Sequence record: ON075799
DNA from: Escherichia phage vB_EcoM_TH18
DNA length: 64,000 nucleotides
Strand: one strand, 5' to 3'
The stretch's first letter is position 1. Every line of letters begins with the position of its first letter. Under the pieces are notes generated by a model. The model worked only from the letters and a program-made list of their open reading frames with translations. It had not been told where the DNA came from and made no database searches. Shown here one piece after another: positions 1-29,490 of this stretch. A program made the position numbers and the translations under genes.

Positions 1-17
1 ACCAATCTGCAATAATT

Positions 18-94
18 TGGTGTGACGGACAGGATTCGAACCTGTGACCACCTAGTCTTCAGCAAGGCACTCTACCAACTGAGTTACCGTCACA
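18..94 (-). tRNA. tRNA-Phe (anticodon GAA)
   Basis: Hand-folded cloverleaf on minus strand: 7-bp acceptor, D-stem actc/gagt, anticodon loop CTGAAGA, T-loop GGTTCGAATCC, CCA encoded. Confidence 0.75.
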
Positions 95-98
95 TAAT

Positions 99-175
99 TG
101 GTGGGCGATGAGGGACTCGAACCCCCAAAATTCAGGTTCTAAGCCTGACATGTATACCAATTCCATCAATCGCCC
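99..175 (-). tRNA. tRNA, anticodon UAG (Leu-like decoding) but short variable loop; atypical
   Basis: Minus strand: acceptor gggcgat/atcgccc, anticodon stem tcagg/cctga with loop CTTAGAA, T-arm with TTCGAGT loop, CCA encoded; type-I length (77 nt) despite Leu-type anticodon. Confidence 0.55.
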
Positions 176-189
176 ATCTATATTAACAG

Positions 190-381
190 TTATGGTTTTC
201 CACGATACACAGAAATAGTTTTCCCATTAGCATTGATAACATAAGCGGTCTGATCCTCAGACAAAAACACTTTTTGATCAATGCCGGAAATAGCTATAGA
301 CTTTTGATGAGCACAATACCCAACAATTTTCCCACAAAAAATTTGTTCATCATTTGGAGAGACGACTTTAACTGTTAACAT
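190..381 (-). CDS. hypothetical small protein (63 aa; ORF 190-462 trimmed to internal ATG)
   Basis: Internal ATG at 381 preceded by AGAGGA; the longer ORF would overlap tRNA-Pro. Confidence 0.4.
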   Translation of the reverse strand: MLTVKVVSPNDEQIFCGKIVGYCAHQKSIAISGIDQKVFLSEDQTAYVINANGKTISVYRGKP

Positions 382-423
382 GGTATCCTCTGTACATTTC
401 TGCTTTGATATGTTTATGTTTGT

Positions 424-501
424 TGGTCTGTCCGGTTGGATTTGAACCAACGACCTGGTCATCCCAAGTGACCCGCGCTACCCAAGCTGCGCTACGGACA
501 G
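424..501 (-). tRNA. tRNA-Pro (anticodon UGG)
   Basis: Minus strand: acceptor ctgtccg/cggacag, D-stem gcgc/gcgc, anticodon stem ggtca/tgacc loop CTTGGGA, T-loop TTCAAAT, CCA encoded. Confidence 0.75.
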
Positions 502-585
502 AGAAATGTAGATTTTAATTGTCCCAGAATCTACTAACTGGTATCGCTGGCTAGGTGATATCTGTGACTTGATTAAGTCAAGAAT

Positions 586-677
586 TGGCGGTTCCTGAAG
601 GATTCGAACCTTCGGTGGGGAGATTCATTCCCAACGGCTTAACAGGCCGTCACCATCGACCACTCGGTCAAAGAACC
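586..677 (-). tRNA. tRNA, type II-like (long variable arm), anticodon loop CTGTTAA (GUU?); identity uncertain
   Basis: Minus strand: acceptor ggttctt/aggaacc, anticodon stem acggc/gccgt, extra stem-loop ggga-atgaatc-tccc, T-arm gaagg-TTCGAAT-ccttc, CCA encoded; 92 nt. Confidence 0.5.
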
Positions 678-686
678 TGAATATTT

Positions 687-763
687 TGGTGGATCTGGTT
701 GGGGTCGAACCAACAATCTCTCGATTAAAAGTCGAGTGACTTAAACCATTTGGCTACAAATCC
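687..763 (-). tRNA. tRNA-Lys (anticodon UUU)
   Basis: Minus strand: acceptor ggatttg/cagatcc, anticodon stem ctcga/tcgag loop CTTTTAA, T-arm gttgg-TTCGACC-ccaac, CCA encoded. Confidence 0.7.
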
Positions 764-780
764 GTTAAATTATCTTTAAA

Positions 781-810
781 ATAGCTAATTACTCGCACAT
801 AATTAGCTAT
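781..810. repeat. perfect 10-bp-stem hairpin (atagctaatt / aattagctat) in inter-tRNA spacer
   Basis: Exact inverted repeat with 10-nt loop read directly from sequence. Confidence 0.6.
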
Positions 811-996
811 ACGCAACAACTCTCCAAGGAGAGCACACTAATGATCGATTACGATTATATGACTAAATTTAGACCATCATAAGTGTTTGGCTTACGCCAG
901 TAAAGAGCGGACTGCTCTGGGGTATCGGTAAGATGGTTGCAGCCATCTACCGAAAAATCACACCAAGCAACTAAACAAGCTACATTAAAGATAACT

Positions 997-1085
997 TGGA
1001 GGAGGCTGACAGAATCGAACTGTCACCATATCTCTACAGCGGGACTGGGTTCAAACCAGCTTGTGCACCATGCACCCCAGCCTCC
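997..1085 (-). tRNA. tRNA-Ser (anticodon UGA)
   Basis: Minus strand: acceptor ggaggct/agcctcc, anticodon loop TTTGAAC, long variable arm, T-arm gacag-TTCGATT-ctgtc, CCA encoded; 89 nt. Confidence 0.7.
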
Positions 1086-1156
1086 AAAGATAGCCTCTGC
1101 CGAGGATATACACCCAACAAAGGAGGCGCTCAGGTCAGAAGAAATCTGAGCCTTAA

Positions 1157-1250
1157 TGGAGGAAGATGCCAGACTTGAACTGGCACACCCATTTCTGGGT
1201 TACTATCTCCTTAGCAGGGAGATCCCTTACCAAATTAGGGTTAATCTTCC
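1157..1250 (-). tRNA. tRNA-Ser (anticodon GCU)
   Basis: Minus strand: acceptor ggaagat/atcttcc, anticodon stem tctcc/ggaga loop CTGCTAA, long variable arm, T-arm gccag-TTCAAGT-ctggc, CCA encoded. Confidence 0.7.
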
Positions 1251-1271
1251 AATACCTTAGTAATTAAAAAC

Positions 1272-1361
1272 TGGTGGAGAAGGAGAGAATCGAACTCTCA
1301 AGCCGTTTTACCAGTCAGCACATTTCCAATGTGCTTTCGTCGCCAATCGATTTGCTTCTCC
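1272..1361 (-). tRNA. tRNA-Ser (anticodon GGA)
   Basis: Minus strand: acceptor ggagaag/cttctcc, anticodon stem gcaca/tgtgc loop TTGGAAA, long variable arm, T-arm gagag-TTCGATT-ctctc, CCA encoded. Confidence 0.65.
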
Positions 1362-1370
1362 GTTTTAACT

Positions 1371-1446
1371 TGGCAGGGGATGGTTGATTCGAACAACCGA
1401 TCACGGGGTCAAAGCCCGTTGCATTAGGCCACTATGCTAATCCCCT
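1371..1446 (-). tRNA. tRNA-Gln (anticodon UUG)
   Basis: Minus strand: acceptor aggggat/atcccct, D-stem gcat/atgc, anticodon stem acggg/cccgt loop CTTTGAC, T-loop TTCGAAT, CCA encoded. Confidence 0.7.
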
Positions 1447-1452
1447 TTTGCA

Positions 1453-1527
1453 CGAGAGTGAGGAATAGAACCTCTTAGTCACTGGTTTTGGAGGCCAGCC
1501 TTCACCCAGTGAAGTTACGCTACTCTC
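1453..1527 (-). tRNA. tRNA-Trp (anticodon CCA)
   Basis: Minus strand: anticodon loop CTCCAAA, T-arm with TTCTATT loop, acceptor gagagt/actctc; CCA not encoded. Confidence 0.6.
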
Positions 1528-1535
1528 ATTAAAAA

Positions 1536-2093
1536 CTATTTTCGAAAAGGACTTATGAAAAATGCCAACATCACTCTCTCTCTTGAAAAAGCTCTGTCTT
1601 CAGGAACCACACTCTTCAGTTTCCAACCGACATAAATTCGCCAGTAAAATTGTTTTCCAAACAATCTAAAAGACGGGACAAACGCGAATACACCCCACGC
1701 ATTGTCATTCCACATCAACAAATAGCCTTGTTGGTTATCCTCCACATCAGAGCTTACATGGAGGTTTCCTTTCCACTTTGTCACAGATGTGATTTCACGT
1801 CCAAGTACGTGATAGGAGAAATTGTAGGCTTTATTTCTCCACAACCAAGCAACTCGTTGTAGGTAAACACCAAAACTTCCTATTTTACGGACTTCTTCCC
1901 ATCTCTCTATGTGTCCTCTATCACCGTCTATAGGATTATCATATGTCTCCATCCACCTGAAAATATAAGGCAGATGCCCTGTCTTCTCATTATAGAACGG
2001 AACAACAAAAGGAGCCAGAATAACACAGAGAACCGACATAACTGGGTCAAGAGGTGCTAACAGGATCCACGATAAATATTTTAAGTATCTCAT
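1536..2093 (-). CDS. hypothetical protein (185 aa, aromatic-rich, hydrophobic N-terminus)
   Basis: Long ORF between tRNA sub-clusters; no recognisable motif. Confidence 0.5.
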   Translation of the reverse strand: MRYLKYLSWILLAPLDPVMSVLCVILAPFVVPFYNEKTGHLPYIFRWMETYDNPIDGDRGHIERWEEVRKIGSFGVYLQRVAWLWRNKAYNFSYHVLGREITSVTKWKGNLHVSSDVEDNQQGYLLMWNDNAWGVFAFVPSFRLFGKQFYWRIYVGWKLKSVVPEDRAFSRERVMLAFFISPFRK

Positions 2094-2320
2094 GCAGGAT
2101 CAAGCCTAGATATAATGTACTGGTTTAAATCTGAATATGGGAAGATACTTTCAAAGATAACCTGTTTAAATCTGAAGCCGCACAAACCGAAAAGTACCTT
2201 CTGACACTCACCAAAAGAGCAATCTTTACCAACTTTTATCACAACCGTATCGGCAATCTGCACACTTTCTATCTCTTTAGATTCATGATGCCGTACTATG
2301 ATTACTTTAGAAACCATCAT
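2090..2320 (-). CDS. hypothetical protein (76 aa)
   Basis: ORF whose stop overlaps the start of the downstream gene by 4 bp (translational coupling pattern). Confidence 0.4.
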   Translation of the reverse strand: MMVSKVIIVRHHESKEIESVQIADTVVIKVGKDCSFGECQKVLFGLCGFRFKQVIFESIFPYSDLNQYIISRLDPA

Positions 2321-2445
2321 ACTCGTCCATATTAAAGCCTTCTACTAAAGATAGTAGATGTCTAGGGTTGGACCGCAAACGCAACCCCATGGAATTTGTT
2401 ACGGTCTTCAGTTGACCCAAGCGGATTTCATTGACATCTTTTAAC

Positions 2446-2520
2446 TGGAGCATCCAGAGGGTATCGAACCCTCGACTTCAGCTTGGAAGGCTGTAGTTTT
2501 CCCAATTAAACTATGGATGC
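2446..2520 (-). tRNA. tRNA-Gly (anticodon UCC)
   Basis: Minus strand: acceptor gcatcca/tggatgc, D-stem gttt/aaac, anticodon loop CTTCCAA, T-arm gaggg-TTCGATA-ccctc, CCA encoded. Confidence 0.7.
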
Positions 2521-2525
2521 ATATT

Positions 2526-2601
2526 TGGTGGGAGTGGTAGGCTCTGCCCCTACGTCCTCTCGATTATCGGTCGAGCGATCTACTAACTGATCTACACTCC
2601 C
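2526..2601 (-). tRNA. tRNA-Ile-like (anticodon GAU), atypical T-loop
   Basis: Minus strand: acceptor gggagtg/cactccc, D-stem gatc/gatc, anticodon stem ctcga/tcgag loop CCGATAA, T-stem gtagg/cctac but loop GGCAGAG lacks TTC; CCA encoded. Confidence 0.5.
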
Positions 2602-2665
2602 AAACTGTACTGGCCCAACAACCACGATTGGAGGGTATCGTCACACATCAAAGCCAGTACAGTTT
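2602..2665. repeat. 13-bp-stem hairpin (aaactgtactggc / gccagtacagttt, 38-nt loop) filling the spacer between two tRNAs
   Basis: Exact inverted repeat read from sequence; no T-loop, so not a tRNA. Confidence 0.55.
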
Positions 2666-2669
2666 TAGT

Positions 2670-2759
2670 TGGTGTGCCGTGATAGAGTCGAACTACCCGA
2701 GTCCCTTTCGAGACAGGAGATTTACAGTCTCCCCCGCTACCCCTACGGTCTAACGACAC
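2670..2759 (-). tRNA. tRNA-Tyr (anticodon GUA), type II
   Basis: Minus strand: acceptor gtgtcgt/acggcac (one G-U), anticodon stem ggaga/tctcc loop CTGTAAA, long variable region, T-arm ggtag-TTCGACT-ctatc, CCA encoded; D-arm irregular. Confidence 0.6.
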
Positions 2760-2760
2760 A

Positions 2761-3108
2761 TTAACCTTGTTTGAATTGAACAATATCCGTCGAGAACGGT
2801 TTAGCTGCCTTAATAGGTGCTTTTTCTGAGTTATCTTTTTCGAGTAACTCTTCGTTTTCCTCATCAAAGTAATCAGAAAGCATCTGCTCACCTTTCTCAA
2901 TAACATAACGAGCTATATTTTCTCTGATATTGTCTTTTGTATTCACATTCTTCATCAAATCCCTAAGAACCTGATGAGCTTCAGGAATCATTGCAATCAG
3001 ATTCGTTTTTAAATCTAGGATATTTTTCTCTAACTGAATTGCATTAGATTCCTCTTTCAGAGGACGACCTTTTCCTCTTCTACGTTTTGTAAGCTGCTTA
3101 GTAGCCAT
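2761..3108 (-). CDS. hypothetical protein (115 aa from internal ATG; acidic C-terminal half)
   Basis: ORF 2761-3333 trimmed to the Met at 3108 because the upstream part overlaps tRNA-Cys. Confidence 0.45.
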   Translation of the reverse strand: MATKQLTKRRRGKGRPLKEESNAIQLEKNILDLKTNLIAMIPEAHQVLRDLMKNVNTKDNIRENIARYVIEKGEQMLSDYFDEENEELLEKDNSEKAPIKAAKPFSTDIVQFKQG

Positions 3109-3193
3109 TTTAAAACCCCACTTAATGATATTATCAAATAAAAACATATCTGTCAAGTGGTATTTTAACATATTTACCAAGAAATTGAAAGTT

Positions 3194-3270
3194 TGGAGCA
3201 CGGTGTCGGACTTGAACCGACATATATCTGTTTTGCAGACAGATCCGTAACCAAATTCCAGCAACCGTGC
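3194..3270 (-). tRNA. tRNA-Cys (anticodon GCA)
   Basis: Minus strand: acceptor gcacggt/accgtgc, anticodon stem tctgt/acaga loop CTGCAAA, T-arm with TTCAAGT loop, CCA encoded. Confidence 0.7.
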
Positions 3271-3356
3271 AATAAGTACCCCAGGTAGAGAACCTATAGA
3301 GTGGGTCTTACGAGCCGCGCTGACGATTCTCAAGTTGGGGTTAATCTGGTCGAGGA

Positions 3357-3433
3357 GACAGGATTCGAACCTGTGACCTACGGCTTAGAAGGCCGCTGCT
3401 CTATCCAACTGAGCTACACCCCGAAAATAAGAA
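3357..3433 (-). tRNA. tRNA-Arg (anticodon UCU)
   Basis: Minus strand: canonical D-arm tagctcagttggatagagc, anticodon stem gcggc/gccgt loop CTTCTAA, T-arm acagg-TTCGAAT-cctgt, CCA encoded. Confidence 0.7.
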
Positions 3434-3623
3434 TGCTTTATAGTGTATGGTTACTCAACCTCACTCCAACTTCCACAGTTGGTGCTCTACGAGCATGACT
3501 ACGTTTGAAATCAACGTTGCGCACCGATAGCTTTCTCACGCATTGTATGCCTCATTCCCAACAAATGCTGATCAGACATTTATATCGAATAATATAAGCT
3601 AATACACTATAAAACAAACTTGT

Positions 3624-3720
3624 GGCTGGGTGATGGAATCGAACCACCTATGTATTCAACGGCTTCCCCGTCTATTTTCAGGATTATAAATCCTCGCCCT
3701 TGCCAAAGGGCTTACCCAGC
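3624..3720 (-). tRNA. tRNA-like gene, unusually long (about 97 nt); anticodon loop TTTATAA (UAU?) with about 30-nt insertion before the T-arm
   Basis: Minus strand: acceptor gctgggt/acccagc, D-stem gccc/gggc, 4-bp anticodon stem agga/tcct, extra hairpin acgg-ggaag-ccgt, T-arm ggtgg-TTCGATT-ccatc; CCA not encoded. Confidence 0.4.
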
Positions 3721-3722
3721 AT

Positions 3723-3797
3723 TGGTGCTCGCAGCAGGTTTCGAACCTGCAACCCCCTGCTTACAAGGCAGGTGCTCTACCGTTGAGCTATACGAGC
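3723..3797 (-). tRNA. tRNA-Thr (anticodon UGU)
   Basis: Minus strand: acceptor gctcgta/tgcgagc, D-stem gctc/gagc, anticodon stem cctgc/gcagg loop CTTGTAA, T-arm gcagg-TTCGAAA-cctgc, CCA encoded. Confidence 0.75.
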
Positions 3798-4162
3798 AAT
3801 AAGACATTGCTTCCGATTAACAGCCTTGAGGCTTTACAGACCATATCTTGTGAGCCATAACCTGTGCCAAGGATTTCAGATGATAAACGAAATTTTATCT
3901 TTCAAGAGTCAACTTTCAAGTTTCATCTTTTACATTTAACCATTGACCTTTATTGTATGAACTTTTACTTAGTGGAAACAACAAGGCATCTTCGTGTGCC
4001 TCGCTGCATCTATGTCCTGTATTATCCTCATACATATACGATACATGGTGGGGGATATTTAACCTCCAACCCCCAGGAGGCAAGATGATGTAAACTTCGT
4101 TAATCAAAAGCAATGTTTTAAATTTCAAAACAAAGGAACGATAATGATATTATCAGAGCCTT

Positions 4163-4810
4163 TTAGAGAGAGTGCTCAATCTCAATTTCTGTCTTAGCGT
4201 TTGACTCAGACAACGCAAAATCAACGTTAGACAAGAAATCTTCAATCTCTTCTTCAAGAGAACGAATCTTAGAAGCCAGTTCAAGAGGATCCACAACCGA
4301 TGGTGTGTTCATCATTCGAATAGGAGCTTCCACAGTCTTAATCTGCTCTGCATCTGGCGCTTTATCACGTTGGATATATGGCGCTCTTGCATTTTCAAGT
4401 TTATCTTCCAGAGATTTTTCTTCTTTTGCCAGAAGAAGCTGTGCAGAAGCACGCTGTGCACAAAGTTTGTTTAACAACTCTTGTTTAAAGCAAATCGTCC
4501 GTTTGCGTTCGATTGCCTCAGCAACTGTCATAGACACATTACCAATTTTGACAATTGTCTCAGCATTAGACTTAACAATTTTTGCTTTCAGTTCATCACG
4601 CACTGCCAAGAGGTCTTGCAGACTTTGATAGTCGTTGATCGCAGATTTCTTAAAATCATCAACAGAGCCGATATAACCCGGAATCTTACAATTATTCTCA
4701 GTTCCTTTTGCAATCTTAATACAATCAAGATTGTAGATACGCTTATTGATCTTATCTTCAATTTTAGAGATAGAAGCAAGTGCACGAGTTACGGAAATCT
4801 TAGTAGACAT
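4163..4810 (-). CDS. hypothetical protein (215 aa, predicted coiled-coil, K/E-rich)
   Basis: Long ORF; composition only. Confidence 0.55.
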   Translation of the reverse strand: MSTKISVTRALASISKIEDKINKRIYNLDCIKIAKGTENNCKIPGYIGSVDDFKKSAINDYQSLQDLLAVRDELKAKIVKSNAETIVKIGNVSMTVAEAIERKRTICFKQELLNKLCAQRASAQLLLAKEEKSLEDKLENARAPYIQRDKAPDAEQIKTVEAPIRMMNTPSVVDPLELASKIRSLEEEIEDFLSNVDFALSESNAKTEIEIEHSL

Positions 4811-4883
4811 GCGATCTCTCCTATGTAAATCAGCTTTGATAAAGTAACTATCCAGAAAAACAAAAACTATGTCAAGAAAAATT

Positions 4884-5075
4884 TTAATCTTTTACAGCAT
4901 CTTTTATAGAATCACAAAGATCTTGAACAACATCAGATGTCGGTGACAAAATCATCTCGTCGGCTGCTGCTATAGCATCTGATGCTAAATCAACAAACGG
5001 AGTTGTTACCGCAGAAGTCACTTCAACAGCCGTTATTGTTACTTCGCTTGCAATCTTAAGCAAAGATCCTATCAT
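4884..5075 (-). CDS. hypothetical protein (63 aa)
   Basis: Small ORF downstream of the tRNA-Met gene. Confidence 0.3.
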   Translation of the reverse strand: MIGSLLKIASEVTITAVEVTSAVTTPFVDLASDAIAAADEMILSPTSDVVQDLCDSIKDAVKD

Positions 5076-5151
5076 AATCTCAACCCTCCTGAATATCCGT
5101 GATTCCCTTTATTTAACGACGCTGGCTCACGGTGGCACTCTCGTCAATAAA

Positions 5152-5475
5152 CTATTTTTTAGTTTTCTTACCGTTTTCTACAGAAATGCTTGTTTTCTGT
5201 TTCGCTTCTCGTTCGCGCTTTGTTTTCCCAGTGCGAATACGATATGAAGCAGAAATAACTTCACCACCAATGACACGAGACACAGATTCGTAATACATTT
5301 CAGTATTACCGTCTTCATCTTTGCGTTTTTTCAGAACTGCTACAGTTTGCGTTTTACCACCAAGGCGCACATCGTGCGGTGCAGAATGTGTCTGCGTGGA
5401 TTTTGATCCAAACTGAAAAGGTTGCTTTATCGCCTCGATAGCTGACACCTTTTTAGCAGACTGTTTCTTAGCCAT
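5152..5475 (-). CDS. hypothetical basic protein (107 aa from internal ATG, Lys-rich)
   Basis: Internal ATG at 5475 preceded by GGAGG; Lys-rich termini. Confidence 0.45.
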   Translation of the reverse strand: MAKKQSAKKVSAIEAIKQPFQFGSKSTQTHSAPHDVRLGGKTQTVAVLKKRKDEDGNTEMYYESVSRVIGGEVISASYRIRTGKTKREREAKQKTSISVENGKKTKK

Positions 5476-5527
5476 TAAGTTTTCTCCTCCGAAAACAATA
5501 AACATAGTTTATTTCGTGTGCCACATT

Positions 5528-5604
5528 TGGTGGCCCCTGCTGGACTTGAACCAGCGACCAAGCGATTATGAGTCACCTGCTCTATCCAACTGAGCTAAGG
5601 GGCC
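5528..5604 (-). tRNA. tRNA-Met (anticodon CAU; elongator-type or Ile2-type)
   Basis: Minus strand: acceptor ggcccct/aggggcc (G1-C72 paired), canonical D-arm, anticodon loop CTCATAA, T-arm gctgg-TTCAAGT-ccagc, CCA encoded. Confidence 0.7.
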
Positions 5605-5936
5605 GAATCTCTTAATATGAGATGATATTATCCTGTATGATCTACATTGTCAAGAGATATTTTAAAATTTTATACATCCCAGTTTTCTTCTTGATAACAA
5701 CCTTCCCCGAATCCAACTTCTTTTTCAAAATCAATACCTTTTTTCATACATTCCTCACATTAACAGATATTGTTTTCAAACTCAAAACGTAAAATACGAA
5801 CTCTGTCAATACACTGCTGTAATCTACAAAGCAACAACTCAACTTGTTTATGCGTCTCTTCAGTATACGTTTTGGTCATCTTGCTTTTCTCCGTGATCTT
5901 TTCATTGCAGCTTCTGCACGTCTTTGTTTACGATTT

Positions 5937-6185
5937 TTAGATGGTTGTTCTAAGGATCCTGATAACGTACTTTGTTGTGCTAATCCCTTCGATGGGGTAG
6001 AAATAATATAATCCCCCTTCTTCACCGAACGATGCAATATATTTCCAGGATTCAATTCCAAAACCAGTTGTAGAAAAAGCGACATCATCCGCTTCTTCAA
6101 GCGCATCATCATGTGTTTTATGGAAAGACTCATGTTCTACGTACTCCCCGTTATCAGACTTAAGAACCATTTTTAATTTAAACAT
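5937..6185 (-). CDS. hypothetical acidic protein (82 aa); overlaps an alternative-frame ORF 5876-6133
   Basis: Two overlapping minus-strand ORFs in different frames; the true product is unclear. Confidence 0.3.
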   Translation of the reverse strand: MFKLKMVLKSDNGEYVEHESFHKTHDDALEEADDVAFSTTGFGIESWKYIASFGEEGGLYYFYPIEGISTTKYVIRILRTTI

Positions 6186-6253
6186 AACAAATCACCACTA
6201 ATTTTATTTTTATCTTGTTATTAGATCTTATCAGTGGTGTTTATTTTTGTCAA

Positions 6254-6460
6254 TTAAACTATTCCAAAAGCCTTGACACCACGCTCGTATTCTGCTACTG
6301 CAAGCTCATGAGGAGAAAGGTCACATGAGGCATCCTTGCAAAGACCGACTTCGATGTAATGTTCTTCTAGTCCATCAAGGATATCTGGCTCCCACGCTTT
6401 TTTCATGTCTGGATGGACTGATGCACGATTTCTATCGTACTTCGCTACGAGATTTCTCAA
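6254..6460 (-). CDS. hypothetical protein (68 aa)
   Basis: Small ORF just downstream of the NAMPT gene on the same strand. Confidence 0.35.
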   Translation of the reverse strand: MRNLVAKYDRNRASVHPDMKKAWEPDILDGLEEHYIEVGLCKDASCDLSPHELAVAEYERGVKAFGIV

Positions 6461-6513
6461 AACATTCTCCTCAAAATAAAAACCCCTCCATGTGGAGGGG
6501 AATGATTATGGTG

Positions 6514-8229
6514 TTAAAGCTGTGATAAGGCTCTTTGGCGAATTTCTTCAAGATCCTCATCCACAAGCAGCTTACCATTAACAAAAACTGTTCTAAGCTC
6601 GTTATCATGGTCAGATACTTGGTTAATACCAAGATTATCTACCAGCTTCAACTCGCCATCATCACCACGAATAACTTTAACAAAACCTTTCGCAGATTTC
6701 TTCCCAAGATCAGTCTTAGGCTCTTTTACGACCATTACTTGTCTGCCATCAATCACAGCACCAGTAGCTTTTACAGCCATCCCAAGAGAATCACGGGTTG
6801 TATATTGCGTTGTATAAGACCCTACACCAAACACAATGTTACTGGAAGCAAACCCTCGTTCTTCAAGGCGCTCAAAGATCTCTTTAGCACGGGAGATTGT
6901 GATAGAGTCTCCGTAGATTAAACCAACATGGCTATCAAGAACTTTGTAACCCAAAGAGTTTACACTACCACCAAAGATTTCCCACAAGCATTGTACAGCA
7001 CCCTTAACTTCCTCTTTTGTCAGATAATTTGTAAATTCATCACCTGTCAAAGATTTCCAATCTACGAGGTTGCCTTCCGAATCTCGCATCCATGAAGTGT
7101 CTCTGGACATCTCGTATAAAGTGACATATTTGCCATTTTTAAACAGCACAGCATCCATGTCACAGCACTGCCCCGTTGCCCATTCTTCCTGAGAGCACAC
7201 GCGATAACCAGCAATGATGTGCTCTGGGATCCCACTGTCAGGTCGGAAGACCAGCTTGCCATCACGAGACATAATCTCATCTTTCAGGATTTTTGCTGCC
7301 TGTGTAATGATTGCCCAAAAATCATAGCTGTCAGCGACGTATGAAGCATAACCTGATGGGAAAATCTCTGTCACATAACGCTTTAAGAACTCAACTTCAG
7401 CACGAAAACGTGCTTCATCAAGCGGCATATCAGGATTTTCCTGCTGGATACGCTCAACAATAAAACCAATGTTCGTTGTCGCTACGCTATGCTCAGATGC
7501 GGGAATAGACCCAGCAACAAAGCGACCTTTCATGTTGTAATAGCGATTTGCGTAAACAATCGCTGGAATTGTATCTGTGCCCATTGAGCTAATCAGTTGC
7601 CCAAATTCGCTCTGTGCTGCGTCATGTGTTCCAGCTTCACCACGGTATGCAAAACAATGGTTCTGGAAAGGAACATGATCGTTGTTATCACATGTTTTCT
7701 TTGCCCACAGTTCTGATAGTTTACGGTATTGCCAGAAAGTCGTTGCCGTGGTAATTGTCTTCCAAGTCTCCGATGAGATCACGCTCTCAAGGAAGTTCGG
7801 CAGCCAGTAAAAATCAGGATGCGTGTTCTGAATCGTGAACATGGGAACCTGAACAGGAACAAGAGTTCCTTCAGGCAAAGCCCTAATTTCAATTGGGAGA
7901 TAACCAAGGTCATGCAATTTCTCAAAACCCCAAGTTTCAACAGCATCCTTCCCAATGCTCAAATCACAAATCTCTTTGTAATCCTGAATCGCCTTTTCTT
8001 TCGGTAAAGCGAAGAAATTATTATTAAACATGTCGATCAGGAACCACTTGATAAATCCCTGAAGACCTGCAAACATCACACGATGGTCATCATCTGCAAA
8101 GTGTACAAAGTGTTTCACATTGCGTGGGGTCATGTTGTCTTGAACAAACTGTGAACGTCTATCGTACATCGAGATGTGACTTGGTTTATAAAAATCTGCG
8201 AACAGCAATGGACTTTCTTTGTGAAGCAT
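6514..8229 (-). CDS. nadV: nicotinamide phosphoribosyltransferase (NAMPT/NadV-like)
   Basis: 571-aa ORF; remembered NAMPT-family signatures including the RPDSG motif and GSYT segment. Confidence 0.8.
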   Translation of the reverse strand: MLHKESPLLFADFYKPSHISMYDRRSQFVQDNMTPRNVKHFVHFADDDHRVMFAGLQGFIKWFLIDMFNNNFFALPKEKAIQDYKEICDLSIGKDAVETWGFEKLHDLGYLPIEIRALPEGTLVPVQVPMFTIQNTHPDFYWLPNFLESVISSETWKTITTATTFWQYRKLSELWAKKTCDNNDHVPFQNHCFAYRGEAGTHDAAQSEFGQLISSMGTDTIPAIVYANRYYNMKGRFVAGSIPASEHSVATTNIGFIVERIQQENPDMPLDEARFRAEVEFLKRYVTEIFPSGYASYVADSYDFWAIITQAAKILKDEIMSRDGKLVFRPDSGIPEHIIAGYRVCSQEEWATGQCCDMDAVLFKNGKYVTLYEMSRDTSWMRDSEGNLVDWKSLTGDEFTNYLTKEEVKGAVQCLWEIFGGSVNSLGYKVLDSHVGLIYGDSITISRAKEIFERLEERGFASSNIVFGVGSYTTQYTTRDSLGMAVKATGAVIDGRQVMVVKEPKTDLGKKSAKGFVKVIRGDDGELKLVDNLGINQVSDHDNELRTVFVNGKLLVDEDLEEIRQRALSQL

Positions 8230-9540: not shown

Positions 9541-9859
9541 CCATATGTCCCCATTTCAGGGACATTATGATCTAATATAATATATATTATATAATATAAT
9601 TTAATATAATACTACGTATTATATATATTATAATATATATATATAATTTATATAAAATACACTAAGTCTTGAAGAATGTCAAGACTTGATTTTAAATATT
9701 TTTGTTGATATGATTCGATTGAGTCGAATCGTATGGTTCGATGATTTCGAATCATAGAGTTCATGTTGTTTTGCCTGAAATCGTGAGTCGATGAGACTCT
9801 TCAGGCAATACGTGAGTGTGTAAGATGCTCACTGCGCTGATAGCTTGTGATCATCTAAC
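9541..9859. promoter_or_regulatory. divergent intergenic control region: about 80-bp near-pure A/T tract (9585-9660) plus short palindromes and TCGA-containing repeats
   Basis: Composition and repeats read directly; lies between the leftward (tRNA/NAD) and rightward (small-gene) transcription units. Confidence 0.5.
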
Positions 9860-13458: not shown

Positions 13459-13860
13459 TATAGTGCGAAAAAATTTTTATGGGTATCATAATTCTATCAC
13501 ACACTTAAACGCAAAGCAACATAAAAATTTTTGTTGAATGATAATCATTCTCATTTGCAGAATGACAGGTAGGATCAGTGTCTTATCCTCCCCCGTTGAC
13601 CATCGTCGCCGTAGTTTGAAGTTTATAGCCGTTCTCGGCTTATCTCTTTGTTAGAGATAGATTACCATAATTGATAAAGAAAGCAAGCGTTAATTGTAAT
13701 CTTTACGTTTCTTTACAAATTTATTTTAGACAAACTACCGGCGATCGACCTTCCAACCAGCGCCCTGGTATGTTAGCCCCGCCTTTACGCCGTGGGGATG
13801 GCGTTGCCTCTTCTGTATGTTAGGCATTATAAGCCCAATCCCTGGGCTTGTCAAACATTT

Positions 13861-16030: not shown

Positions 16031-16402
16031 ATGAAACAGTTAACCGCTTCCCAAAAAACAATGATCCGTGAGTATGTTTTAAATTCTCTTTCTTTTGATC
16101 TTGAATCTGATCTCAAACAAGATCAGATTCAAGAATTAAAAAACCGCTTTGAATCTGAATACTGGTACGATAGCAACAAGAAACGCTATCAAAATGATAA
16201 AGTACAAGGCCTTAAAAACTGGCTACAAGGCTTGCCAAGCGGTGTTGATATTGATTTCACTTATTACGATATTGAGCAACGCCTTAAGGATTTTGGAATC
16301 ATCACCGACACGACCAGAGAAAGCACCATTGAAAAATATGTTTCTGAGTGGTGGGATCTAGTAGCGCCGTTTTATGTGGGTCTGATCGTAAACTTAAAAT
16401 AA
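16031..16402 (+). CDS. hypothetical protein (123 aa)
   Basis: Promoter TTGACA-17-TAAACT at 15964-15992; ribosome-binding site GAGGTAAAT. Confidence 0.55.
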   Translation: MKQLTASQKTMIREYVLNSLSFDLESDLKQDQIQELKNRFESEYWYDSNKKRYQNDKVQGLKNWLQGLPSGVDIDFTYYDIEQRLKDFGIITDTTRESTIEKYVSEWWDLVAPFYVGLIVNLK

Positions 16403-23230: not shown

Positions 23231-23284
23231 CACTTGTAAAGAGTAATTTGAAAAAAGCTGCGTAGGTGGCGCGACCGTAGGGAG

Positions 23285-23361
23285 CGACACAATAACGCAG
23301 TAGTAGCCCCTCACCCCTCCTTCCAGTCGCCCCCGGTATCGGGGCAGCGTTATTGTGTCGC
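23285..23361. repeat. 15-bp perfect inverted repeat (gcgacacaataacgc / gcgttattgtgtcgc) around a 47-nt C-rich loop
   Basis: Exact reverse-complement match read from the sequence. Confidence 0.8.
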
Positions 23362-23373
23362 TAAGCGACAACG

Positions 23374-23437
23374 CGTTAACAATTTTGCAAGATTTTATTA
23401 ATACTTTAACTGTTATAATTTTATTGCAAAATTGTTA
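23374..23437. repeat. 16-bp perfect inverted repeat (gttaacaattttgcaa / ttgcaaaattgttaac), 32-bp spacer
   Basis: Exact reverse-complement match read from the sequence. Confidence 0.8.
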
Positions 23438-23444
23438 ACCTACT

Positions 23445-23555
23445 GCGTTATTGTGTCACGTAGTGATTAGTTACATATGTAACTAACAGCTATCACTGCA
23501 AAATTGTGTCACGTAGTGATTAGCTGAGAATCAGCTAACCCGTAAAACGGGCTAA
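23445..23555. repeat. direct repeat ATTGTGTCACGTAGTGATTAG (two copies), each followed by a palindrome (ttagttacatatgtaactaa; agctgagaatcagct), then cccgtaaaacggg
   Basis: Exact repeats and palindromes read from the sequence. Confidence 0.75.
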
Positions 23556-28375: not shown

Positions 28376-28657
28376 ATGACTGTAAAAATCCCTAAAGGTG
28401 GCAGACCAGATAGAAATGCATGTGACATGCGTGTAAGGGTAGGGAGAATGTGTCTAATTTATGGAATAACTTATCCACCAATGGTGCGACTTAATGGTAA
28501 AATATGTAAGGTCATCGACATACCAAAAGATAACACAACACGCTTCTTGTGCAAGGTCAAAGATGAAGAGAAGGTTTTTAACATCCCACACAAAAACCTA
28601 ACAGTTTTGGATCTTAATGACAACATTGTTATCTCTAAATACCGTTGTATAAGCTAA
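28376..28657 (+). CDS. hypothetical protein (93 aa); lone plus-strand gene inside the minus-strand block
   Basis: Own promoter TTGTCA-16-TAATAT (about 28312-28345), AGGAG ribosome-binding site, and a bidirectional terminator downstream. Confidence 0.45.
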   Translation: MTVKIPKGGRPDRNACDMRVRVGRMCLIYGITYPPMVRLNGKICKVIDIPKDNTTRFLCKVKDEEKVFNIPHKNLTVLDLNDNIVISKYRCIS

Positions 28658-28660
28658 CAT

Positions 28661-28684
28661 AAAAGCCCCGCATGGGGCTTTTAT
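28661..28684. terminator. bidirectional rho-independent terminator (AAAA-gcccc-gcat-ggggc-TTTT)
   Basis: Hairpin flanked by an A-run and a T-run, between convergent genes. Confidence 0.7.
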
Positions 28685-28686
28685 GT

Positions 28687-29490
28687 TTATTCAAAATCAT
28701 CAACACCACTATCGGTAAGGTTTTCTCTGCTTGAAGGTTTTGTCGAAAGAACTTGCTCAAGCAGAGAGGAAAATTTCTGCAAATTACTTACAGAAGAAGT
28801 ACCTGCTGCCATGGCAAGCATATCCACTTCTTTTTCGGTAGGTTGAGCCCAGTCTAGAAACATCTCTTTCATGTACAACGTTGATGACCCTATTGGTGTG
28901 GCGAGGTCAACCCTATCAGCATAGATCCAGAAAAGAACCTCTTTCTCTATACATACACACAAAGCAGCACCCAACGAGTATCCTGTAACGATGGATGGAT
29001 ATCTTGCAACGAGGATCTCGACATTCAGGTCATCCCAGTGAAATACAACACCCAAATACTTCATACCCACAATGTCTTCCACTGCGGGTTTTAGCTCCTC
29101 ATGGGAAGAAAGGGAGTCATAGTTAATATTCTTTATGAATTTAAGAACGTCTTGGCGGTTGTAGGCACAATCGTTATCACCTTGCTTCCAATAACCCCAA
29201 AATGAAGTCGATAAATTCAACCAAAAACTTGCAGTTGTCCCTAATGTCTCAGCCAGTTTTTCAGCCACATCTTCTGATACTTCTTCCATGTTATAAAGGA
29301 TGGTTCTCAACTTATTTACCGGTATACCAGATTTGTCGGCAAGATCATCCACACACCAACCTAATGGATCTAGATATTCGTGGATAATAACCTCACCTGG
29401 TGATACTGGTGCTCTTTCTTTTAACATTCTTGCTCCTCTATCTATATCAGAAAACCCTGCAAAGCAGCAGGGTTCTGTCACTCTTAACAC
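28687..29490 (-). CDS. HigA/XRE-type helix-turn-helix domain protein with about 170-aa C-terminal domain of unknown function
   Basis: N-terminal segment SPGEVIIHEYLDPLGW...IPVNKLRTILYN...AEKLAETLGTTASFWLNLST matches the remembered HigA-antitoxin helix-turn-helix pattern. Confidence 0.55.
   Translation of the reverse strand: MLRVTEPCCFAGFSDIDRGARMLKERAPVSPGEVIIHEYLDPLGWCVDDLADKSGIPVNKLRTILYNMEEVSEDVAEKLAETLGTTASFWLNLSTSFWGYWKQGDNDCAYNRQDVLKFIKNINYDSLSSHEELKPAVEDIVGMKYLGVVFHWDDLNVEILVARYPSIVTGYSLGAALCVCIEKEVLFWIYADRVDLATPIGSSTLYMKEMFLDWAQPTEKEVDMLAMAAGTSSVSNLQKFSSLLEQVLSTKPSSRENLTDSGVDDFE

What the first reader, a model, noticed from the sequence alone, without database searches (positions are those of the whole stretch)
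2602..2665. Long perfect hairpins fill the spacers between tRNA genes
The whole 64-nt spacer between the Ile-like and Tyr tRNAs forms a 13-bp perfect stem with a 38-nt loop. Other spacers carry a 10-bp-stem hairpin (781-810) and a 7-bp stem (about 509-535). These may be processing signals for the polycistronic tRNA precursor, or small structured RNAs in their own right.
Basis: seen in the sequence. Interest (0 to 1): 0.4.

Follow-up and report, generated by a model that had tools for sequence, protein, structure and literature searches.

The report
Genus-specific hairpin insert between phage tRNAs
The 64-base hairpin between the tRNA-Tyr and tRNA-Ile genes is real, but it is an insertion found only in the Avunavirus phage genus and shows no evidence of a function of its own; two other spacers in the same tRNA cluster do hold structured RNA elements conserved in other phages.

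Summary
Window 2602-2665 has a perfect 13-bp inverted repeat around 38 nt. It fills 64 of the 68 nt between tRNA-Tyr and a Rfam-detected tRNA-Ile(GAU), all on the minus strand. The RNA folds at -26 kcal/mol (z = -4.3) and ranks in the top 0.05% of 64-nt segments in the window.

The window is an Avunavirus phage (100% to Escherichia phage 18-1-2, 95.7% to Av-05). In three other Vequintavirinae lineages, Tyr and Ile lie only 6-7 nt apart. The hairpin is therefore most likely a genus-specific 62-64-nt insertion, not a conserved processing signal. It is single-copy and has no match in phages, IMG/VR, E. coli genomes or plasmids. Av-05 and two metagenomic relatives carry one substitution that breaks the third base pair, with no compensating change.

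My best reading is a self-folding spacer that is co-transcribed and cut out by ordinary tRNA processing. Function is unproven.

The other two hairpins differ:
- 781-810 sits inside a spacer whose ends belong to an unannotated ~120-nt structured RNA found next to a tRNA in about 175 phage genomes, with compensatory base-pair changes.
- 508-534 lies in a ~50-nt element conserved upstream of tRNA-Pro, and its stem sequence differs between genera while staying complementary.

The parts
2602..2665 (-). 64-nt spacer hairpin. The outer stem is 13 bp perfect and is extended by 2 G.U pairs, a weak 4-bp helix and a 5-bp apical stem.
2653..2665 (-). 5' arm on the transcribed strand (AAACUGUACUGGC). Position 2663 is the only variable site: A here, U in Av-05, L017 and L018.
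2602..2614 (-). 3' arm on the transcribed strand (GCCAGUACAGUUU). It ends directly at G+1 of tRNA-Ile.
2624..2641 (-). Apical stem-loop: ACGAU/AUCGU (5 bp) around the 8-nt loop ACCCUCCA.
2666..2669 (-). ACUA, the 4 unpaired nt between the CCA of tRNA-Tyr and the hairpin. It resembles the start of the ancestral 6-7-nt spacer (AUUAAU in KB57, AAACAAA in SalP219).
2670..2759 (-). tRNA-Tyr(GTA), upstream neighbour in the transcript. Its 5' end is 1 nt after the stop codon of ORF 2761-3108.
2526..2601 (-). tRNA-Ile(GAU) with non-canonical T-loop GGCAGAG, downstream neighbour. Missed by ARAGORN and found by Rfam.
764..996 (-). 233-nt spacer between tRNA-Ser(UGA) and tRNA-Lys. It is an expanded copy of a widely conserved structured element, closed by the stem 770-779/985-994.
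508..534 (-). 7-bp hairpin inside a ~50-nt element conserved upstream of tRNA-Pro in several Vequintavirinae genera.
3424..3623 (-). 200-nt Avunavirus-only spacer between the Leu-like tRNA and tRNA-Arg, closed by a 12-bp perfect inverted repeat (3437-3448/3602-3613). Relatives have 3-7 nt here.
3271..3346 (-). 76-nt spacer between tRNA-Arg and tRNA-Cys, closed by a 6-bp stem. IMG/VR relatives L010-L012 have 1-5 nt here; SalP219 has 118 nt.

Best explanation
The hairpin is a 62-64-nt piece of DNA inserted, in the Avunavirus lineage, into the ancestral 6-7-nt spacer between tRNA-Tyr and tRNA-Ile.

**Proposed mechanism (inferred).**
- It is transcribed on the minus strand as part of a polycistronic RNA: ORF 2761-3108, Tyr, hairpin, Ile, Gly.
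- It folds on itself into an extended hairpin.
- It is released as a by-product. RNase P cutting at G+1 of tRNA-Ile makes its 3' end. Endonucleolytic cleavage and 3' trimming just after the CCA of tRNA-Tyr make its 5' end.
- Because its two ends pair, the insert is a closed domain. It cannot mispair with the flanking tRNAs, and it keeps the Tyr 3' end and Ile 5' end about as close as in relatives without it. That would explain why such an insert is tolerated.

I think it has no essential role of its own.

**Shown:** the structure, its position, its restriction to one genus, its single-copy status, and its predicted independent folding.
**Inferred:** co-transcription, the processing steps and the lack of function.
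For: **Structure and statistics:**

**Orientation.** All 15 ARAGORN tRNAs and the extra Rfam tRNAs are on the minus strand. A sigma-70-like promoter (TTGACA-17-TAATAT with TG) lies at 3156-3128 on the minus strand, upstream of ORF 2761-3108. No terminator-like site lies between Tyr and Gly.

**Insertion.**
- SalP219 (Seunavirus), KB57 (Mydovirus), PVP-SE1 (L012, Seunavirus) and IMG/VR relatives L007, L010 and L011 (genus not determined) have the same Cys-ORF-Tyr-Ile order with 6-7 nt between Tyr and Ile.
- The alignment shows a clean 62-nt gap in the relatives.

**Restricted to Avunavirus.** The sequence occurs only in Avunavirus records and contigs. It has no match in E. coli genomes and only one short chance-level match (25 nt, E = 1) in plasmids.

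**Independent folding.** In a 314-nt Tyr-hairpin-Ile-Gly precursor, the minimum-energy fold gives separate tRNA domains plus the hairpin. Pair probabilities are at least 0.99 for the core 10 bp.

**No sign of constraint on the stem.** The only substitution among four lineages breaks a pair and is not compensated.

**Closure is a recurring feature.**
- Spacers 764-996, 3424-3623 and 3271-3346 are also bracketed by 10-, 12- and 6-bp terminal stems.
- In the conserved element of spacer 764-996, the closing stem covaries across phages.
Against: - No expression or RNA-end data exist, so co-transcription and excision are inferred.
- A perfect 13-bp stem, and a 98-100% conserved 64 nt, could reflect selection. 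However, the flanking tRNAs have 0 substitutions and the genomes differ by only about 4-5%, so about one change in the stem is expected either way.
- Polarity is by parsimony. If Avunavirus branches first in the subfamily, one deletion in the ancestor of the other genera is equally parsimonious.
- The source of the inserted sequence was not found.
Confidence: 0.5

Rival explanations
1. RNase III processing site. The roughly 25-pair extended hairpin would be cut by host RNase III, separating tRNA-Tyr from tRNA-Ile. This would work like the processing hairpins of T7 early mRNA or the stems flanking rRNAs.
For: - The predicted fold has 13-15 contiguous pairs followed by interrupted upper helices.
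- Three other long spacers in the cluster are also closed by 10-12-bp stems, or about 18 bp in the predicted fold of 3424-3623.
- From my own knowledge, not verified here: the T4 tRNA-cluster RNA 'species 1' is an RNase III substrate in vitro.
Against: - Relatives separate the same two tRNAs with a 6-7-nt spacer and no hairpin, so no such site is needed.
- The contiguous duplex is only 10-13 bp, shorter than the roughly two helical turns typical of RNase III substrates.
- Three of four lineages weaken the base of the stem.
- There are no cleavage data.
Confidence: 0.15
2. Stand-alone small RNA. After excision the hairpin would accumulate and act in trans. For example, its C-rich apical loop (ACCCUCCA) could pair with Shine-Dalgarno-like GGAGG sequences, or the 5-bp stem with its 8-nt loop could act as an anticodon-arm-like decoy for a tRNA-targeting defence nuclease.
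For: - It is very stable and self-contained.
- Its ends coincide with tRNA processing sites.
- There is precedent: RNAC and RNAD are made from the T4 tRNA region and have unknown roles (PMC3014915 and PMC9697503).
- A clearly selected non-tRNA structured RNA exists in another spacer of this same cluster.
Against: - It is restricted to one genus, with no homologue anywhere else.
- There is no covariation.
- The loop motif is short and non-specific.
- There is no evidence that the RNA accumulates.
Confidence: 0.15
3. Relic of a small palindromic mobile element (MITE- or REP-like) or of a template-switch inverted duplication. It would act only at the DNA level.
For: - It has perfect terminal inverted repeats bounding an insert at a precise site.
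- A perfect stem fits a recent origin.
Against: - It is single-copy in the window and in the Av-05 genome.
- There is no target-site duplication.
- No elements with the same arms occur in IMG/VR.
- The 35 hits with the same arms in bacterial genomes are Pseudomonas REP-like palindromes and chance matches, with unrelated interiors.
- The arms do not copy any neighbouring sequence.
Confidence: 0.07
4. Decayed tRNA gene that once sat between Tyr and Ile.
For: - Its size (64 nt) and position are tRNA-like.
- It shares a 10-nt string (CGATACCCTC) with the T-arm of the neighbouring tRNA-Gly.
Against: - Rfam finds no tRNA there even at E up to 1.
- Its best local alignment to 164 phage tRNAs is matched or beaten by 58% of shuffles.
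- A 13-bp terminal stem is not tRNA-like.
- Relatives have no gene at this position.
Confidence: 0.04
5. Intrinsic transcription terminator or attenuator.
For: On the plus strand the stem is followed by TTTTAGTT.
Against: - On the transcribed minus strand the hairpin is followed by GGGAGUG, with no U tract.
- The loop is 38 nt.
- The terminator scan did not call it on either strand.
- Terminating here would cut off tRNA-Ile and tRNA-Gly.
Confidence: 0.03

Closest known systems
T4 RNAC and RNAD (species 1 and 2), small stable RNAs from the T4 tRNA gene region
   Same: They are non-tRNA structured RNAs encoded among phage tRNA genes and made from the same region. Their function is unknown (PMC3014915, PMC9697503).
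   Different: - The 64-nt sequence found no match outside Avunavirus in the phage collection.
- By my recollection, not verified here, RNAC is about 140 nt, roughly twice this size.
- T4 RNAC and RNAD are shown to accumulate; this hairpin is not.
RNase III processing hairpins (T7 early-region R1.1 type; rRNA operon flanking stems)
   Same: Each is a hairpin or long-range stem between functional units of a polycistronic transcript, with a lower stem, an internal loop and an upper stem.
   Different: - The contiguous duplex here is only 10-13 bp.
- Cleavage is untested.
- Relatives need no such site at this junction.
Conserved ~120-nt structured element abutting a tRNA in phi92-like, rV5-like and some T5-like phages (found here; unannotated)
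   Same: It lies in the same tRNA cluster. It is a closed module whose 5' and 3' ends pair, and it directly abuts a tRNA end.
   Different: - That element is in about 175 phage records and has 7 covarying pairs.
- The 64-nt hairpin is confined to one genus, shows no covariation and has no sequence similarity to it.
Spacer-filling hairpin downstream of tRNA-Gln in other Vequintavirinae
   Same: It is a hairpin starting 4 nt after the CCA and nearly filling the tRNA-tRNA spacer (L007 4728-4760, L010 4498-4568, L012 4560-4592).
   Different: - It is at a different junction and has a different sequence.
- Its stem shows compensatory differences between the L007 and L010 relatives (TGAGCAT/GTGCTCA versus TGAGTGT/ACACTCA). 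The window lacks it: Gln and Ser are 9 nt apart.

Membership tests
tRNA or tRNA pseudogene | Cloverleaf detectable by tRNA covariance model or ARAGORN | tested here: not met
   There is no ARAGORN call and no Rfam tRNA-clan hit at 2602-2669, even at E up to 1.
tRNA or tRNA pseudogene | Residual sequence similarity to tRNAs | tested here: not met
   The best local score against 164 phage tRNAs was 20. The shuffled null had mean 20.1, and 58% of shuffles scored at least as high.
Intrinsic terminator | G+C-rich stem, short loop, and a U tract directly after the stem on the transcribed strand | tested here: not met
   The loop is 38 nt and the hairpin is followed by GGGAGUG on the minus strand. 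It was not called by the scan.
Repeated palindromic or miniature inverted-repeat element | Multiple copies in the genome or in related genomes | tested here: not met
   There is one place per Avunavirus record, and the arms are not repeated in the window. IMG/VR holds only Av-05 itself. Hits in bacterial genomes are unrelated.
Repeated palindromic or miniature inverted-repeat element | Target-site duplication flanking the terminal inverted repeats | tested here: not met
   The flanks are ACTA on one side and GGGAG on the other, with no direct repeat.
RNase III processing site | Double-stranded region of about two helical turns, often with an internal loop | tested here: inconclusive
   The predicted fold has 13 Watson-Crick plus 2 G.U contiguous pairs, then interrupted 4-bp and 5-bp helices. 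Other lineages have 10 bp plus a mismatch.
RNase III processing site | Cleavage by RNase III in vivo or in vitro | not testable with these tools
   This needs a comparison of rnc mutant and wild-type hosts, or an assay with purified enzyme.
Conserved tRNA-operon processing signal | Present at the same junction in related phages | tested here: not met
   The Tyr-Ile spacer is 6-7 nt in SalP219, KB57, L007, L010, L011 and L012.
Structured RNA under selection | Compensatory base changes in the stem | tested here: not met
   Only two alleles exist. The single difference changes A-U to U.U with no compensation. Power is very low.
T4 RNAC/RNAD-type stable RNA | Encoded within a phage tRNA gene cluster on the tRNA strand | tested here: met
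T4 RNAC/RNAD-type stable RNA | Accumulates as a discrete stable RNA during infection | not testable with these tools
   No RNA data are available for Avunavirus.
T4 RNAC/RNAD-type stable RNA | Sequence homology to the T4 RNAs | tested here: not met
   A blastn search of the 77-nt region against 50,697 phage records at E up to 10 gave full matches only in Avunavirus.
Any Rfam family, including self-cleaving ribozymes | Covariance-model match | tested here: not met
   A cmscan of window 1-7000 at E up to 1 found only tRNA-clan hits and antisense plastid-UTR artefacts lying on tRNAs.

The most novel reading that the evidence does not exclude
The hairpin could be one lineage-specific member of a broader, undescribed class: closed-stem, non-tRNA RNA modules that large enterobacterial phages insert directly against tRNA ends in their tRNA operons. 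The widely conserved ~120-nt element in spacer 764-996 would be the oldest member. These modules would be released by the tRNA-processing enzymes and act as functional RNAs, for example as decoys for tRNA-targeting defence nucleases, or as chaperones or insulators of precursor folding.
Probability: 0.12. Interest if true: 0.6.

Novelty: new member of a known kind. Interest (0 to 1): 0.3.

Why it matters
By itself the hairpin matters little. It shows that a phage tRNA operon tolerates a sizeable insert between two tightly spaced tRNAs when the insert folds on itself.

The comparison has more value. Several spacers in this cluster are bracketed by terminal stems. One of them is an unannotated structured RNA shared by about 175 genomes of rV5-like, phi92-like and some T5-like phages. 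Phage tRNA clusters are now studied as counter-defence loci (for example PMC10264068 and PMC11464382), so conserved non-tRNA RNAs made from the same transcripts are obvious candidates to test.

Tried and rejected
**Origin of the insert: nothing informative.**
- blastn against phages, E. coli genomes and plasmids.
- Arm-pattern scans of IMG/VR and of 185,579 bacterial species genomes. The latter gave Pseudomonas REP-like palindromes and chance hits with unrelated interiors.
- blastn-short against the window and all fetched loci.

**Covariation for the main hairpin: not possible.** A tRNA-anchored metagenome scan found only two more Avunavirus-like contigs, both with the Av-05 allele.

**tRNA-relic idea: rejected**. 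The shared CGATACC motif occurs 10 times, all on the minus strand, against 2.9 expected. It was a lead, but it is also a common T-loop string, and six of the ten copies lie outside the tRNA cluster.

**Known RNA families or ribozymes:** none.

**ORFs inside the cluster.** They give only families of unknown function (PHROGs and DUF7338) plus one protein annotated as tail fibre. They say nothing about RNA processing.

**Element upstream of tRNA-Pro.** RNAalifold picked only an invariant CCAG/CUGG stem, because the variable hairpin is shifted in register between genera. The covariation there was therefore read by eye.

**Literature searches** found nothing on hairpins in Vequintavirinae or T5 tRNA clusters.

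**Spacers 3424-3623 and 3271-3346.** Comparison across the four Avunavirus lineages showed too little variation to test their stems. In 3271-3346, L017 and L018 break one pair of the 6-bp stem.

Full report
**What the window is.** The first 6 kb of the window are 100% identical to Escherichia phages 18-1-2, 19-1-2 and 24-2-1, and 95.7% identical to Escherichia phage Av-05. These are Vequintavirinae, genus Avunavirus. None of these records annotates tRNAs or anything else at the hairpin. The Av-05 genome paper reports 9 tRNAs (PMC4463512).
- ARAGORN finds 15 tRNA genes in the window, all on the minus strand between 18 and 5604.
- Rfam adds a tRNA at 2529-2601 (53.4 bits) and a 97-nt one at 3624-3720 (33.1 bits). 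It also gives a weak tRNA-like hit at 1454-1525.
- No non-tRNA Rfam family is hit at E up to 1. The only other hits are antisense plastid-UTR artefacts lying on tRNAs.

**The observation.** The sequence at 2602-2665 is AAACTGTACTGGC, then 38 nt, then GCCAGTACAGTTT: a perfect 13-bp inverted repeat.
- On the transcribed minus strand the order is tRNA-Tyr ending in CCA at 2670, then ACUA, then the 64-nt hairpin, then G+1 of tRNA-Ile(GAU) at 2601 with no gap.
- The minus-strand RNA folds at -26.0 kcal/mol. The outer stem is extended by two G.U pairs, a weak 4-bp helix and a 5-bp apical stem (ACGAU/AUCGU) with the loop ACCCUCCA. The z-score is -4.25 and no shuffle of 200 is as stable. The plus strand gives -22.6 kcal/mol and z = -4.41.
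- No shuffle of 500 gives a terminal stem this long.
- The segment ranks in the top 0.05% of 15,985 minus-strand 64-nt windows.
- In a 314-nt Tyr-hairpin-Ile-Gly precursor, the predicted minimum-energy fold keeps the tRNAs and the hairpin as separate domains. Pair probabilities are at least 0.99 for the core 10 bp.

**Conservation.** The 64-nt sequence has full matches only in the five Avunavirus records. The IMG/VR copy of Av-05 is the only viral-contig hit.
- A metagenome scan anchored on the flanking tRNAs found two more Avunavirus-like contigs, L017 and L018, 95-96% identical to the window.
- Av-05, L017 and L018 all carry U instead of A at the third position of the 5' arm. This turns an A-U pair into U.U with no compensating change. 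The perfect 13-bp stem is therefore specific to the 18-1-2 lineage. The others have 10 bp, a mismatch, then 2 bp.
- The hairpin lies in a block where tRNA-Gly, tRNA-Ile and tRNA-Tyr show no substitutions at all. With genomes only 4-5% apart, one change in 64 nt fits either neutrality or constraint.

**The key comparison.** Other Vequintavirinae share the same local gene order: Cys, a conserved ORF of unknown function, Tyr, Ile, and in several of them Gly.
- In Salmonella phage SalP219 (Seunavirus), Klebsiella phage KB57 (Mydovirus) and four IMG/VR relatives (L007, L010, L011 and L012 = PVP-SE1), Tyr and Ile are separated by 6-7 nt.
- The alignment shows a clean 62-nt gap in those phages exactly where the hairpin lies. 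The spacers read AAACAAA in SalP219 and AUUAAU in KB57, against ACUA + hairpin in the window.
- The most parsimonious reading is an insertion in the Avunavirus lineage. If Avunavirus is the earliest branch of the subfamily, a single deletion would be equally parsimonious.
- Either way, these phages process the same tRNA pair without the hairpin, so it is not a required or conserved processing signal.

**Where the insert came from.** I could not find a source.
- It is single-copy and has no target-site duplication.
- It has no match in 5,426 E. coli genomes and only one short chance-level match (25 nt, E = 1) in 72,556 plasmids.
- A scan of bacterial genomes for the same arms returned 35 hits. 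These are a Pseudomonas putida-group REP-like palindrome and scattered chance matches, all with unrelated interiors.
- It is not a recognisable tRNA relic.
- It is not an intrinsic terminator on the transcribed strand.

**Context: other spacers.** Folding every tRNA-tRNA spacer in the cluster showed that closure by a terminal stem recurs.

| Spacer | Length | Closing stem | Same junction in relatives |
|---|---|---|---|
| 764-996 | 233 nt (z = -6.4) | 10 bp, 770-779/985-994 | 5 nt in SalP219 and L010 |
| 3424-3623 | 200 nt | 12 bp perfect, 3437-3448/3602-3613 | 3-7 nt |
| 3271-3346 | 76 nt | 6 bp | 1-5 nt in L010-L012; 118 nt in SalP219 |

Sources.
- Across 50 spacers in the window and relatives, 12 had terminal stems with p < 0.03 against shuffles. 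These spacers are not independent, because many are homologous between relatives.
- Relatives have their own spacer-filling hairpins. One follows tRNA-Gln, and its stem differs in a compensatory way between the L007 and L010 relatives.

**Spacer 764-996 holds a widely conserved RNA.** Its first ~86 nt and last ~25 nt are homologous to a ~116-127-nt element that abuts a tRNA in about 175-180 phage records.
- It occurs in Justusliebigvirus and Phapecoctavirus (Stephanstirmvirinae), Vequintavirus (JES2013), Certrevirus (PBES 02) and some T5-like Tequintavirus phages (Spc35, phiLLS).
- In most of these phages it directly follows a tRNA-Ser. In JES2013 it follows tRNA-Arg. In the T5-like phages it sits immediately upstream of tRNA-Tyr, and in PBES 02 about 30 nt upstream of tRNA-Tyr.
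- No record annotates it and no Rfam family matches it.
- RNAalifold on 11 sequences gives a 13-bp closing stem plus three hairpins. Seven pairs show changes on both sides that keep the pair. For example, the closing stem GUUAUCUUUAA/UUAAAGAUAAU becomes GUUGUUUUUAA/UUAAAAACAAU in EF1-1 and GUUCUUUUUAA/UUAAAAAGAAU in Ro121lw.
- The window's copy carries roughly 110 extra nt. It also includes a hairpin at about 819-834 that shows U-A to C-G and G.U to G-C changes relative to Av-05.

**Spacer 502-585.** A ~50-nt stretch just upstream of tRNA-Pro is 88-93% identical across genera. Its stem reads GUAGAUU/AAUCUAC here, GUAAG/CUUAC in Seunavirus, UGCAG/CUGCA in L010, L011 and KB57, and GUGAG/CUUAC in L009. 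The loop UCUGGGAYAAUUAAAA is conserved. RNAalifold could not score this because the register shifts.

**Most likely mechanism.** The hairpin is probably co-transcribed with ORF 2761-3108, Tyr, Ile and Gly. A good sigma-70-like promoter lies at 3156-3128 on the minus strand, and no terminator-like site lies between Tyr and Gly.
- It folds on its own and is cut out by the enzymes that mature the flanking tRNAs. RNase P at the Ile 5' end would create its 3' end. Cleavage and trimming after the Tyr CCA would create its 5' end.
- Its closed fold would keep it from interfering with tRNA folding, which explains why it is tolerated.
- These steps are inferred from established E. coli tRNA processing, not shown here. 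I put this at about 0.5.
- Rivals: an RNase III site (0.15), a functional small RNA (0.15), a mobile or template-switch relic acting only as DNA (0.07), a decayed tRNA (0.04) and a terminator (0.03).

**Comparison with known systems.** The closest precedent is T4 RNAC and RNAD, small RNAs of unknown role made from the T4 tRNA region (PMC3014915 and PMC9697503). The hairpin shares the genomic setting but shows no sequence similarity to any other phage in the collection, and accumulation is untested. It fails the tests for tRNA, terminator, repeated palindromic element, conserved processing signal and any Rfam family.

**Verdict.** The feature is real and statistically striking, but it is a genus-specific insert with no evidence of function. 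It is a new member of a known kind: non-tRNA structured spacers in phage tRNA operons. I score interest at 0.3. The more valuable result is the by-product, a widespread, covarying, unannotated structured RNA in phage tRNA clusters, part of which lies at window 764-996.

Noticed in passing
window 764-996 (minus strand); L054 600-726, L072 182-298, L076 200-316 and others: An unannotated ~116-127-nt structured RNA element abuts a tRNA in about 175-180 phage records. It follows tRNA-Ser in most, follows tRNA-Arg in JES2013, and lies upstream of tRNA-Tyr in T5-like phages and PBES 02. The taxa are Justusliebigvirus, Phapecoctavirus, Vequintavirus, Certrevirus and some T5-like Tequintavirus. It has a 13-bp closing stem plus three hairpins, and 7 pairs show double compensatory changes. 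No Rfam family matches it. The window carries an expanded copy.
   Followed up: partly
window 502-585 (minus strand); L003 606-655, L012 5314-5357, L010 5670-5711: A ~50-nt element (CUAGCCAGCGAUACCAGUU, a variable hairpin, and the conserved loop UCUGGGAYAAUUAAAA) is 88-93% conserved just upstream of tRNA-Pro in several Vequintavirinae genera. The hairpin stem sequence differs between genera but stays complementary. Its function is unknown.
   Followed up: partly
window 3347-3423 versus L006 3172-3263 (Av-05): At the tRNA-Arg(UCU) position, Av-05 carries a different, odd Arg(UCU)-like sequence with a long extra arm that ARAGORN and Rfam do not detect. Both flanking spacers are 100% identical. 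This looks like a cassette-like swap of a single tRNA gene.
   Followed up: partly
window 2526-2601 (minus strand): tRNA-Ile(GAU) has a non-canonical T-loop (GGCAGAG instead of UUCGAAU) and is missed by ARAGORN. SalP219 has a similar loop (AGCAAAG), whereas KB57 has a normal one.
   Followed up: no
window 3624-3720 (minus strand): A 97-nt tRNA-like gene (Rfam tRNA, 33 bits) has a long extra arm and an anticodon loop that reads UUUAUAA. It is 94% identical to unannotated sequence in rV5-like phages. ARAGORN calls odd 4-base-anticodon tRNAs of similar length (about 98 nt) in L015 and L016, but their correspondence to this gene was not checked.
   Followed up: no
window 1454-1525 (minus strand): A weak tRNA-like hit (tRNA-Sec model, 32 bits, E = 0.002) lies 7 nt upstream of tRNA-Gln in the transcript. 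Part of it is conserved in SalP219 and PVP-SE1.
   Followed up: no
window 3424-3623 (minus strand): A 200-nt spacer found only in Avunavirus is closed by a 12-bp perfect inverted repeat and predicted to fold into about 8 hairpins (z = -3.55). Relatives have 3-7 nt at this junction. It has no homologue in the phage collection.
   Followed up: partly
window 23283-23507: A cluster of long perfect inverted repeats with 16-18-bp arms (for example GACACAATAACGCAGTAG/CTACTGCGTTATTGTGTC) lies within about 225 nt. It may be a regulatory or origin-like region.
   Followed up: no
window 16099-16134, 28656-28687, 9576-9647, 13469-13532: Other long perfect hairpins are present: a 15-bp stem with a 6-nt loop; a 14-bp stem AACATAAAAGCCCC/GGGGCTTTTATGTT with a 4-nt loop (terminator-like); AT-only palindromes; and a 13-bp AT-rich inverted repeat.
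   Followed up: no
L055 (ESCO32), L077 (alia), L064: Some Justusliebigvirus copies of the conserved element carry a ~45-nt internal duplication. One repeat resembles the window/Avunavirus variant of the second and third hairpins, which suggests recombination between variants.
   Followed up: no
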